DNA from: a virus
Lineage: Duplodnaviria; Heunggongvirae; Uroviricota; Caudoviricetes
IMG/VR virus record: IMGVR_UViG_2671180921_000016
Reading direction: 5' to 3' (one strand)
Length of the DNA stretch: 10,202 nucleotides
The notes under the pieces are model-generated. The model searched no databases. It was given only the letters and a program-made list of their open reading frames with translations, and was not told the origin of the DNA. This document shows, piece by piece, positions 968 through 1,135 of this stretch; position 1 is the stretch's first letter; each line of letters opens with the position of its first letter. The position numbers and the translations under genes were made by a program.

Positions 968-1028
968 TGTTTCACATATTGCAATGATAGCACTCATTAT
1001 TGCGATTAATGAAACACGAATGTAATAT
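968..1028 (+). promoter_or_regulatory. Control region with a plus-strand sigma70-like promoter (-35 TTGCGA 1000-1005, 17-bp spacer, -10 TAATAT 1023-1028) flanked by dyad TGTTTCA (968-974) / TGAAACA (1010-1016)
   Basis: Hexamers and spacing read directly from the sequence. The inverted repeat brackets the promoter. A minus-strand promoter for the 771-944 gene probably lies in the same region (possible TATCAT -10 = plus atgata 984-989). Confidence 0.35.
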
Positions 1029-1035
1029 TAATCAG

Positions 1036-1103
1036 GAACGGGGTTTCAGTGTTTTTGCAACCGTCATCCTTTAACGACCGCCAGCTCTCTGGCGGTTTTT
1101 TTT
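1036..1103 (+). ncRNA. Candidate small RNA of about 65-70 nt, running from the predicted start after the 1000-1028 promoter to the intrinsic terminator at 1077-1103
   Basis: A strong promoter followed about 50 nt later by a perfect terminator hairpin and T8. No plus-strand protein gene lies upstream; the 552-1025 plus ORF is an antisense shadow. The unit is antisense-convergent to the minus-strand operon terminator. Confidence 0.3.
1077..1103 (+). terminator. Rho-independent terminator (stem ACCGCCAG / CTGGCGGT, loop CTCT, then T8)
   Basis: 8-bp perfect GC-rich stem followed directly by eight T residues. Confidence 0.7.
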
Positions 1104-1105
1104 GC

Positions 1106-1135
1106 AATAAAAAAGGCCAGATGTCAGATCCGGCC
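1106..1135 (-). terminator. Rho-independent terminator for the minus-strand SSB/FinO/PerC operon (hairpin GGCCGGAT-CTGAC-ATCTGGCC, then U-tract)
   Basis: On the minus strand an 8-bp stem (one G-U pair) is followed by TTTTTTATT (plus A-run 1106-1114). It sits 48 nt after the PerC-like stop and back-to-back with the plus-strand terminator. Confidence 0.6.

What the first reader, a model, noticed from the sequence alone, without database searches (positions are those of the whole stretch)
1000..1135. Candidate small RNA: strong promoter feeding directly into a perfect terminator, convergent with the FinO/PerC operon terminator
A near-consensus promoter (TTGCGA, 17 bp, TAATAT) is followed about 50 nt later by a textbook terminator (8-bp stem then T8). 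No plus-strand protein gene precedes this terminator, so the unit would yield a 65-70 nt RNA. It sits back-to-back with the minus-strand terminator of an operon that includes a FinO/ProQ-family RNA chaperone about 350 bp away. FinO-family chaperones typically act with a dedicated cis-encoded small RNA (FinP/FinO, RocR/RocC), which makes a chaperone-sRNA pair a specific, testable hypothesis.
Basis: partly seen in the sequence, partly recalled or inferred. Interest (0 to 1): 0.65.

Follow-up and report, generated by a model that had tools for sequence, protein, structure and literature searches.

The report
Candidate small RNA in satellite island
Between two operons of a phage-satellite-like island in E. 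coli sits a short, self-terminated plus-strand unit that probably makes a 55-75 nt non-coding RNA; the evidence does not show that it is the dedicated partner of the neighbouring FinO-type RNA chaperone.

Summary
The sequence features are real. TTGCGA-17-TAATAT lies at 1000-1028. A 9-pair GC-rich hairpin with a T8 run lies at 1076-1103. No plus-strand gene lies upstream. The finO-perC minus-strand terminator follows 5 bp later.

The terminator is far beyond chance. The promoter alone is not: it matches 8 of 12 consensus positions, which is as common as in shuffled sequence.

Comparison rescues the promoter. Four sequence variants of this intergenic module keep the -35 hexamer, the 17-bp spacing, -10 positions 1, 2, 5 and 6, the hairpin (with compensatory changes) and a U7-9 tail. 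The spacer and the 5' body vary freely. Relatives that lack the -10 also lack a plus-strand terminator.

The -35 is part of a conserved operator repeat. That repeat controls the divergent "p57" operon across a wide family of PICI-like islands.

The unit is therefore probably a real small non-coding transcript. Its 3' module is U-rich before the hairpin with a long U tail, which resembles Hfq-type rather than ProQ-type ligands.

Its link to FinO is weak. About 50 variants of the region downstream of finO were examined, and only this type has an opposite-strand-only terminator. No target, Rfam family or published description was found. This is a moderately interesting, unvalidated candidate.

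The parts
968..1016 (.). Operator-like inverted repeat: GTTTCAcatATTGCAAT (970-986) and ATTGCGATtaaTGAAAC (999-1015). This is the bidirectional control region upstream of p57.
   Evidence: Inverted repeat I3. The motif TTGC(A/G)A-N-ATGAAA is conserved upstream of every p57 homologue examined, including those with no room for an sRNA.
1000..1005 (+). Candidate -35 hexamer TTGCGA. It lies inside the distal operator repeat.
   Evidence: Sequence. Invariant in all 7 aligned variants.
1023..1028 (+). Candidate -10 hexamer TAATAT, 17 bp from the -35. The predicted start is A1034 or G1035.
   Evidence: Variants read TAATAT, TAGTAT or TAGGAT. Positions 1, 2, 5 and 6 are invariant and the spacing is constant at 17. 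Only 1 of the 8 spacer columns just upstream is invariant. The hexamer is absent in class B and L127-type relatives, which also lack a plus-strand terminator.
1035..1075 (+). Body of the predicted RNA. The 5' part (1035-1048) is variable. The rest contains a U-run (1052-1056) and AUCCUUUAAC (1066-1075).
   Evidence: This is the most diverged 40-nt stretch (40% identity) in a 4.8-kb alignment that is 91% identical overall with the L002 island. The core UGU(Y)UUUU...UC(Y)UUU is kept in the variants. No conserved 5' hairpin was found.
1076..1103 (+). Rho-independent terminator: 9-pair hairpin (core 1078-1084 / 1089-1095, loop CTCT) and T8 (1096-1103).
   Evidence: The hairpin is kept in all variants, 97.8% of cells are paired, and 2 of 7 pairs show changes on both sides. 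The U7-9 tail is kept, and no T-run lies on the minus-strand side.
1107..1137 (-). Terminator of the finO-perC operon: hairpin 1137-1113, then T6. It is convergent with the plus-strand terminator, with GCAAT between them.
   Evidence: Conserved in the variants.
1183..1455 (-). PerC-family gene, the last gene of the upstream operon.
   Evidence: Pfam PF06069, E = 3e-34. RefSeq annotation.
1452..1976 (-). ProQ/FinO-domain protein (174 aa) with a basic N-terminal extension.
   Evidence: Pfam PF04352, E = 1e-23. Matches ProQ NTD 5nb9 (E = 6e-12) and FinO 1dvo (E = 2e-10); the query's kvGIf, aSYaq and cpRYy segments align to ProQ's kiGIf, rLYts and swRYl. That these are the Gly/Tyr/Arg of the 3'-end pocket is my assignment from PMC9674577's description of RocC, not a checked residue-number correspondence.
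771..944 (-). p57, a 57-aa protein and first gene of the divergent downstream operon.
   Evidence: Homologues sit next to the operator motif across the family. No Pfam, PHROG or NCBIfam hit.

Best explanation
The window is part of a PICI-like integrative island. Its order is integrase, AlpA, Icd-like, DUF4222, primase, SSB, FinO-like, PerC, then a second operon that starts with the 57-aa gene p57.

The 238-bp gap between perC and p57 is a bidirectional control region built around two copies of an operator motif (ATTGCRAT-N3-TGAAAC). On the plus strand, a sigma-70-type promoter uses the distal operator copy as its -35 (TTGCGA) and TAATAT as its -10. It would fire away from p57 and run after about 42 nt into its own Rho-independent terminator. 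The product would be a non-coding RNA of about 66-70 nt, or 55-75 nt in the variants. Its layout is a variable 5' end, a single-stranded U/C-rich stretch (UGUUUUU...AUCCUUU), a GC hairpin and a U7-9 tail.

Shown: the elements exist, they are conserved as a set, and they do not encode a protein.

Inferred: that the promoter fires. Inferred: that the RNA acts as a base-pairing regulator, with the anti-Shine-Dalgarno-like UCCUUU stretch as the likely seed and a chaperone bound at the 3' module. Inferred: that its expression is coupled to the occupancy of the shared operator.

Whatever else it does, the terminator keeps this divergent transcription from running antisense into perC-finO. Which chaperone binds (host Hfq, host ProQ or the island's FinO-like protein) is open.
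For: - Orphan plus-strand terminator: 0.01 hairpins of this quality are expected per shuffled window, and it has a T-run on the plus-strand side only.
- No plus-strand gene to serve: ORF 552-1025 is frame-broken in L002.
- Four diverged variants of the module are available: the window; L002; L159; L162-L171.
- All variants keep the -35, the exact 17-bp spacing and -10 positions 1, 2, 5 and 6. They also keep the 3 bases after the -10, the hairpin core and the U7-9 tail.
- By contrast, the spacer and the 5' body vary.
- The hairpin shows compensatory changes: A-U to G-C, G-C to C-G, and A-U to U-A.
- Promoter and terminator co-occur across the wider family. Class B and the L127 type have neither; the window type, class A and L118 have both.
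- Class B still has the p57 operator, so the -10 block is not needed by the p57 promoter.
- In relatives L117, L133 and L138 the same region is followed on the plus side by protein genes, consistent with plus-direction transcription from it.
- There is no conserved ORF. The reading frame shifts between variants, and the only possible start codon (GTG) is lost in the L144/L151 variant.
Against: - No transcript data exist for any strain carrying the unit.
- The promoter matches only 8 of 12 consensus positions, which is chance level on its own. Its -35 is conserved for another reason, since it is part of the operator.
- The four variants come from closely related islands (p57 93-100% identical), so they are not fully independent. 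Covariation statistics are weak: 35 of 500 shuffles reach the observed score.
- The 5' half of the body is the least conserved stretch of the region, which is unusual for a seed-bearing sRNA.
- No target better than shuffled controls was found in the island, and no significant match in phages.
- No Rfam family matches.
- Most related islands do without the unit.
Confidence: 0.55

Rival explanations
1. Insulator only. The control region fires in both directions as a by-product of its near-palindromic, AT-rich operator layout. The plus-strand terminator exists just to stop that transcription from colliding with, or running antisense to, the convergent finO-perC operon. The short RNA has no function of its own.
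For: - The control region is a large imperfect palindrome (I1 and I3).
- The 5' body evolves very fast and carries indels.
- No target was found.
- The unit is dispensable in classes B and C.
- In class A the hairpin at the equivalent position also works as a second same-strand terminator.
Against: - A U/C-rich core before the hairpin and a long U7-9 tail are kept in all four variants. A pure stop signal does not need them.
- The -10 shows a purifying-selection pattern, whereas a harmful by-product promoter could simply be lost, as in class B.
Confidence: 0.27
2. Dedicated FinO partner. The RNA is the cognate ligand of the island's FinO-like protein, in the manner of FinP/FinO, RocR/RocC or Inc/FopA. 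The protein would stabilise it and help it pair with a target.
For: - The finO-like gene lies about 350 bp away.
- Every island found with this unit also carries finO.
- The RNA ends in a hairpin with an oligo-U tail, the generic FinO-domain ligand (PMC9674577, PMC7367173).
- The Gly/Tyr/Arg-containing segments of the query align with those of ProQ.
Against: - FinO homologues occur with about 50 different downstream sequences, and only this type has an opposite-strand-only terminator. Classes B and C (CFT073 lineage and O104:H4) have finO but no such unit.
- The RNA is not antisense to any gene, unlike FinP and Inc.
- The 10 nt 5' of the hairpin are U-rich in three of four variants (CCUUUAACGA, UCCUUUGACU, UCCUUUAACU, UGUCUUUUAU). 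That is the Hfq-type signature, not the A-rich ProQ-type signature (PMC7367173).
- The FinO domain shows little sequence specificity, so adjacency is the only specific argument.
Confidence: 0.12
3. Minus-strand element. The hairpin is a second or bidirectional terminator, or a 3' structure, of the finO-perC transcript, and no plus-strand RNA is involved.
For: In class A islands the hairpin at the same position is flanked by an A-run and a T-run, and it scores as a tandem same-strand terminator.
Against: In the window and in all three other variants, the minus-strand reading has the hairpin followed by UCGUUAAAGG or similar, with no U-tract. The plus-strand side keeps T7-T9. The perC terminator 5 bp upstream is already complete.
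Confidence: 0.04
4. Leader, attenuator or small ORF. The unit would be the 5' leader of a plus-strand gene, or would encode a micro-peptide.
For: In L178/L159 a K88-type fimbrial gene lies about 450 nt further on the same strand. Some variants contain an ATG-initiated ORF of 25 or more codons.
Against: In the window the next 2 kb on the plus strand is antisense to perC, finO and SSB. The ORFs differ in frame between variants, lack a Shine-Dalgarno sequence and run through both terminators. The window has no ATG, and its GTG is lost in the L144/L151 variant.
Confidence: 0.02

Closest known systems
Class I Hfq-binding sRNAs of enterobacteria (for example SgrS, RyhB) and their 3' Hfq-binding module
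   Same: A free-standing gene of 55-75 nt. It has a U-rich stretch just 5' of a GC-rich terminator hairpin and a tail of seven or more U, plus a single-stranded pyrimidine-rich candidate seed (criteria from PMC7367173 and PMC5558911).
   Different: No Hfq binding data and no target. The 5' end is hypervariable instead of carrying a conserved seed. It is encoded on a satellite-like island and shares an operator with a divergent operon.
FinP/FinO (F plasmids), Inc/FopA (pCol1B9) and RocR/RocC (Legionella): FinO-domain chaperones with a cognate small RNA
   Same: A FinO-domain gene and a terminator-ended small RNA candidate lie within 400 bp on a mobile element. The RNA size is similar to RocR.
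   Different: FinP and Inc are cis-antisense to their targets, whereas this RNA overlaps no gene. Most finO-carrying relatives lack it. The A-rich 5' flank typical of ProQ-specific ligands is absent.
SviR, the sRNA of the Vibrio cholerae PLE satellite (bioRxiv 10.1101/2022.04.08.487710)
   Same: A phage-satellite-type element encoding a small RNA that could act on satellite and helper transcripts.
   Different: Known here only from that abstract. There is no sequence or context similarity, and no experimental evidence exists for the present RNA.
P4 CI RNA and P1/P7 C4 immunity RNAs
   Same: Small RNAs of about 70 nt on satellite or prophage elements that also carry icd-like genes. Their specificity regions evolve fast (from my own knowledge, not tested here).
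   Different: Those RNAs are processed from the leader of the operon they control and lie upstream of icd. This unit has its own promoter and terminator and lies elsewhere. No Rfam hit, including to the C4 family.

Membership tests
Free-standing bacterial sRNA gene | Own promoter | tested here: inconclusive
   The match is 8/12, at chance frequency on its own. Across the four variants the hexamer positions 1, 2, 5 and 6 and the 17-bp spacing are conserved while the spacer varies. The -10 is lost together with the terminator in relatives. No transcript data.
Free-standing bacterial sRNA gene | Own Rho-independent terminator, strand-specific | tested here: met
   (0.01 expected per shuffled window). 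Conserved with compensatory changes. The T-run is on the plus-strand side only.
Free-standing bacterial sRNA gene | Non-coding | tested here: met
   No conserved ORF, frame or start codon among the variants. No ATG in the window RNA.
Free-standing bacterial sRNA gene | Detectable stable transcript | not testable with these tools
   No expression data are reachable. Well-studied carriers of related islands that I identified (O104:H4, and ABU 83972 of what I take from my own knowledge to be the CFT073 lineage) belong to the classes that lack the unit.
Cognate RNA of a FinO-domain protein (FinP, RocR, Inc) | 3' terminator hairpin of at least 2 bp with an oligo-U tail of at least 4 nt | tested here: met
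   9-pair hairpin plus U8. Criterion from PMC7367173 and PMC9674577. The criterion is generic, and the perC mRNA 3' end meets it too.
Cognate RNA of a FinO-domain protein (FinP, RocR, Inc) | Co-inheritance with the chaperone gene | tested here: not met
   One-way only. All islands with the unit have finO. Most finO-carrying relatives lack the unit: only 1 of about 50 downstream-region variants has it.
Cognate RNA of a FinO-domain protein (FinP, RocR, Inc) | Antisense or base-pairing relation to a defined target | tested here: not met
   It overlaps no gene. Island-wide and start-site-restricted duplex searches were no better than shuffled RNAs. No significant phage match.
Cognate RNA of a FinO-domain protein (FinP, RocR, Inc) | Physical binding and stabilisation by the protein | not testable with these tools
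   Needs RIP/CLIP, EMSA and half-life measurements.
ProQ-type ligand signature | [quoted passage not shown] | tested here: not met
   The 10 nt 5' of the stem are CCUUUAACGA (window), UCCUUUGACU (L002), UCCUUUAACU (L159) and UGUCUUUUAU (L162). U predominates in three of four (criterion from PMC7367173).
Class I Hfq-binding module | U-rich stretch before the hairpin plus a 3' tail of seven or more U | tested here: met
   Same sequences as above. The tails are T8/T9, T7, T7 and T8/T9. This is a resemblance only; binding was not tested.
Rfam families (FinP, C4, IsrK and the others, 4227 models) | Covariance-model match | tested here: not met
   No hit in 1000-1140 at E <= 1.

The most novel reading that the evidence does not exclude
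The RNA and the adjacent FinO-like protein form a satellite-encoded chaperone-sRNA module. The operator shared with the p57 operon would switch the RNA on or off with the state of the island. The FinO-like protein would load the RNA through its terminator. The fast-evolving 5' body would set specificity for helper-phage or host transcripts, in the way that incompatibility or immunity RNAs diversify.
Probability: 0.12. Interest if true: 0.7.

Novelty: new member of a known kind. Interest (0 to 1): 0.42.

Why it matters
FinO/ProQ-family proteins on phage satellites have so far only been listed as accessory genes (PMC13612085), and no RNA partner or function is known for them. A validated small RNA next to such a gene would give a direct experimental route into post-transcriptional control in PICI-like islands. 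It would also add a second case of a satellite-encoded regulatory RNA after the Vibrio PLE example. Even if the RNA is only a by-product, the unit marks a conserved bidirectional control region. That region has an operator motif shared by a large family of E. coli islands and is worth studying as the switch between the replication operon and the downstream operon.

Tried and rejected
- Rfam scan of the whole window at E <= 1 gave only two spurious miRNA hits elsewhere.
- BLAST of the intergenic region against plasmids and phages gave no match. The 52-nt body against phages at E <= 10 gave only 21-nt chance matches.
- The 19-nt operator/-35 pattern in metagenomes gave 8 hits. Six were chance matches in unrelated DNA and two were near-identical copies.
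- Target search by RNAduplex over the whole island gave a best energy of -34.3 kcal/mol, against shuffled bests of -31.6 to -40.1. The search over start regions of all annotated genes gave, for the window, an observed best reached by 57% of shuffles, and for L002 by 20%. The top genes were not the same in the two islands.
- A 9-nt match of the AUCCUUU core at L001 7669 lies in non-coding repeat DNA and was judged to be chance.
- The alternative promoter TTCACA-18-CATTAT (971-1000, 9/12) is not conserved in L002, so it is less likely.
- Small ORFs on either strand of the gap are not conserved.
- The p57 fold: the single-sequence AlphaFold model (pLDDT 85) is all-helical and Foldseek found nothing in the PDB. 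My guess of a ribbon-helix-helix regulator is therefore unsupported.
- The 5' hairpin predicted in the window RNA is not kept in the variants.

Full report
CONTEXT

All credible genes in the window are on the minus strand. They form a PICI-like integrative island:
- integrase (7694-9124)
- an AlpA-like excisionase (6633-6851)
- an Icd-like domain
- DUF4222
- a D5-type primase (3006-4838)
- SSB (2033-2476)
- a ProQ/FinO-domain protein (1452-1976)
- a PerC-family protein (1183-1455)
- after a 238-bp gap, a 57-aa gene here called p57 (771-944), which opens a further operon.

The window is 99.1-99.5% identical to the chromosome of E. coli EC12, where the island sits at tRNA-Ile next to nfeF. It carries a FinO gene 100% identical to that of an IMG/VR contig. 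Islands with this make-up (integrase, AlpA, primase, plus Icd, ProQ/FinO and PerC as accessory genes) have been filed as PICIs in Enterobacter (PMC13612085). No RNA was described there.

THE OBSERVATION

The terminator is strong: 9 pairs, 6 of them G-C, then T8. Under a strict definition, such hairpins occur at three plus-strand sites in the window against 0.01 per shuffled window. Its T-run is on the plus-strand side only. Read on the minus strand, the hairpin is followed by UCGUUAAAGG. The perC terminator (1137-1113) lies 5 bp away and converges on it.

The promoter is weaker than described. TTGCGA and TAATAT each match 4 of 6 positions. Sites of that quality are as frequent as in shuffles (33 observed, 44.7 +/- 7 expected), and the tool's 9/12 scan did not list it.

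No plus-strand gene can claim the terminator. ORF 552-1025 is antisense to real genes, and a 2-nt indel breaks its frame in the nearest relative.

RELATED SEQUENCES

The exact intergenic sequence is rare among complete E. coli genomes (3 of 5426) and absent from the plasmid and phage collections. The exact p57 protein, however, is on record in 363 blocks of the assembly collection.

Four diverged versions of the module were recovered:
- the window type, including a one-base, T9 variant;
- L002 from E. coli 2015C-4136CT1;
- L159/L178;
- L162-L171.

In the alignment the invariant positions are:
- the -35 with its operator context;
- -10 positions 1, 2, 5 and 6 (the hexamers read TAATAT, TAGTAT, TAGGAT);
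- the next three bases;
- a few U and C positions before the hairpin;
- the hairpin core CCGCC/GGCGG;
- at least seven T;
- GCAAT;
- the perC terminator.

The -35 to -10 spacing is 17 bp in every variant, yet only 1 of the 8 spacer columns just before the -10 is invariant.

The stem keeps pairing through changes on both sides: A-U to G-C at the base, G-C to C-G in L002, and A-U to U-A in L162-L168. With so few sequences the shuffle control is only weakly exceeded (35 of 500).

Between the window island and the L002 island (91% identical over 4.8 kb), conservation runs through the -10 and collapses at the predicted start. The stretch 1026-1065 is the most diverged 40-nt window of the whole alignment, at 40%.

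THE WIDER FAMILY

Seventy-one IMG/VR loci with a FinO homologue and 65 with a p57 homologue were examined.

The motif TTGC(A/G)A-N-ATGAAA, usually in two copies, lies upstream of p57 everywhere.

What lies between the operator and the upstream operon's terminator differs by type:
- Class B has nothing there (110-bp gap). It is also the form in ABU 83972, which I take to belong to the CFT073 lineage from my own knowledge.
- The L127 type also has nothing.
- L115 to L123 have a -10-like block plus about 30 nt.
- Class A has the same, plus a hairpin flanked by an A-run and a T-run.
- Class C carries a 1.9-kb gene insert. It is found in 112 E. coli genomes, including O104:H4.

Where a hexamer with A at position 2 and T at position 6 sits at the right distance, a hairpin that can terminate plus-strand transcription follows (window type, class A, L118). 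Where that hexamer is missing, so is the hairpin (class B, L115, L127). This is my reading.

Class B still has the operator and p57, so the -10 block is not needed by the p57 promoter.

In L117, L133 and L138 the plus-direction side of the same region is followed by protein genes. That is consistent with the region driving transcription in both directions.

Taken together, these comparisons support the promoter-plus-terminator pair being one evolutionary unit.

WHAT THE RNA LOOKS LIKE

The predicted RNAs are 55-75 nt. Only the terminator hairpin is structurally conserved. The 5' stem-loop predicted for the window is not kept.

The single-stranded stretch before the hairpin is U/C-rich (UGUUUUU...AUCCUUUAAC), and the tail is U7-9.

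According to PMC7367173, ProQ-specific ligands carry an A-rich tract 5' of the terminator, whereas Class I Hfq ligands carry a U-rich tract and a long U tail. The four variants have U-rich flanks in three cases and a mixed one in the window. The 3' module therefore resembles the Hfq type.

FinO domains themselves need only a short stem and a 3' tail, and they show little sequence specificity (PMC9674577). Binding by the island's protein is thus possible but not specifically indicated.

THE FINO HYPOTHESIS

The island protein is a bona fide FinO-domain protein, and its Gly/Tyr/Arg-containing segments align with those of ProQ.

Every island that has the unit also has finO, even where a fimbrial gene has been inserted in between.

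The converse fails. Among about 50 distinct sequences downstream of finO homologues, only the window type has an opposite-strand-only terminator. In class A the hairpin scores as a tandem same-strand terminator.

The RNA is not antisense to any gene, unlike FinP or Inc. I therefore rate the dedicated-pair reading at about 0.12.

TARGETS

Duplex searches over the island and over all start regions were no better than shuffled RNAs, and the window and L002 searches did not point to the same gene. No significant complementarity to sequenced phages was found. A 9-nt match to the conserved core elsewhere in the island lies in repeat DNA and is probably chance.

VERDICT

The most likely reading (0.55) is a real, self-contained small non-coding transcription unit. 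It fires divergently from the p57 operon under a shared operator, and its terminator also shields finO-perC from antisense transcription. Whether the RNA has a function of its own is uncertain, and a pure insulator reading carries 0.27. Everything beyond the DNA elements and their conservation is inference until a transcript is shown.

Noticed in passing
window 2760-3000: About a dozen copies of GGTGAACAGT in both orientations lie in the AT-rich gap just upstream of the primase gene. This is probably the island's replication origin (iterons). The weak Rfam mir-395 hit (2823-2930) is an artefact of these repeats.
   Followed up: partly
window 9305-9386: The 3' half of tRNA-Ile (ACTCATAATCGCTTGGTCG... 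to CCACCA) is followed by a strong plus-strand terminator (9359-9386) next to the integrase end. This appears to be the original tRNA 3' end and its terminator, displaced by insertion of the island (the attachment-site repeat). The intact tRNA lies at the other end of the island in EC12.
   Followed up: partly
window 5439-6623 and 6163-6490: Only residues 308-393 of the 394-aa minus-strand ORF match Icd-like families. A plus-strand ORF (6163-6360) and a strong plus-strand terminator (6464-6490) lie inside it. The long ORF is therefore probably not real over its N-terminal part, and a small plus-strand unit sits here. EC12 has about 430 bp extra at this point.
   Followed up: partly
window 6905-6995: Three to four copies of (A)ATAGCCAG(C/T)T(ATT) lie upstream of the AlpA-like gene. 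These may be binding sites of the island's regulator.
   Followed up: no
window 1088-1121: The 3' halves of the two convergent terminators are 85% alike as an inverted repeat around TTGCAA (TCTGGCGGTTTTTTTTGCAA / TTGCAATAAAAAAGGCCAGA). GCAAT between them is invariant in all variants. The reason is unknown.
   Followed up: no
L151, L173-L182 (perC next to the unit): In many islands with an identical p57, perC is frameshifted, truncated to 54 aa or not called, while the intergenic module stays nearly identical.
   Followed up: no
L178 8530-9315 (same contig as L159): A K88-type fimbrial subunit gene is inserted between perC and the terminator pair. It is on the same strand as the candidate RNA, about 450 nt downstream of it.
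   Followed up: no
L117, L133, L138 (upstream of p57 homologues): In these relatives a protein gene (SSB in L117) is transcribed divergently from the same operator region, so the gene order around the control region is not fixed in the family.
   Followed up: partly
L001 7560-7710 (EC12, outside the window): A cluster of about six TGGGACAT repeats lies in non-coding DNA near the tRNA end of the island.
   Followed up: no
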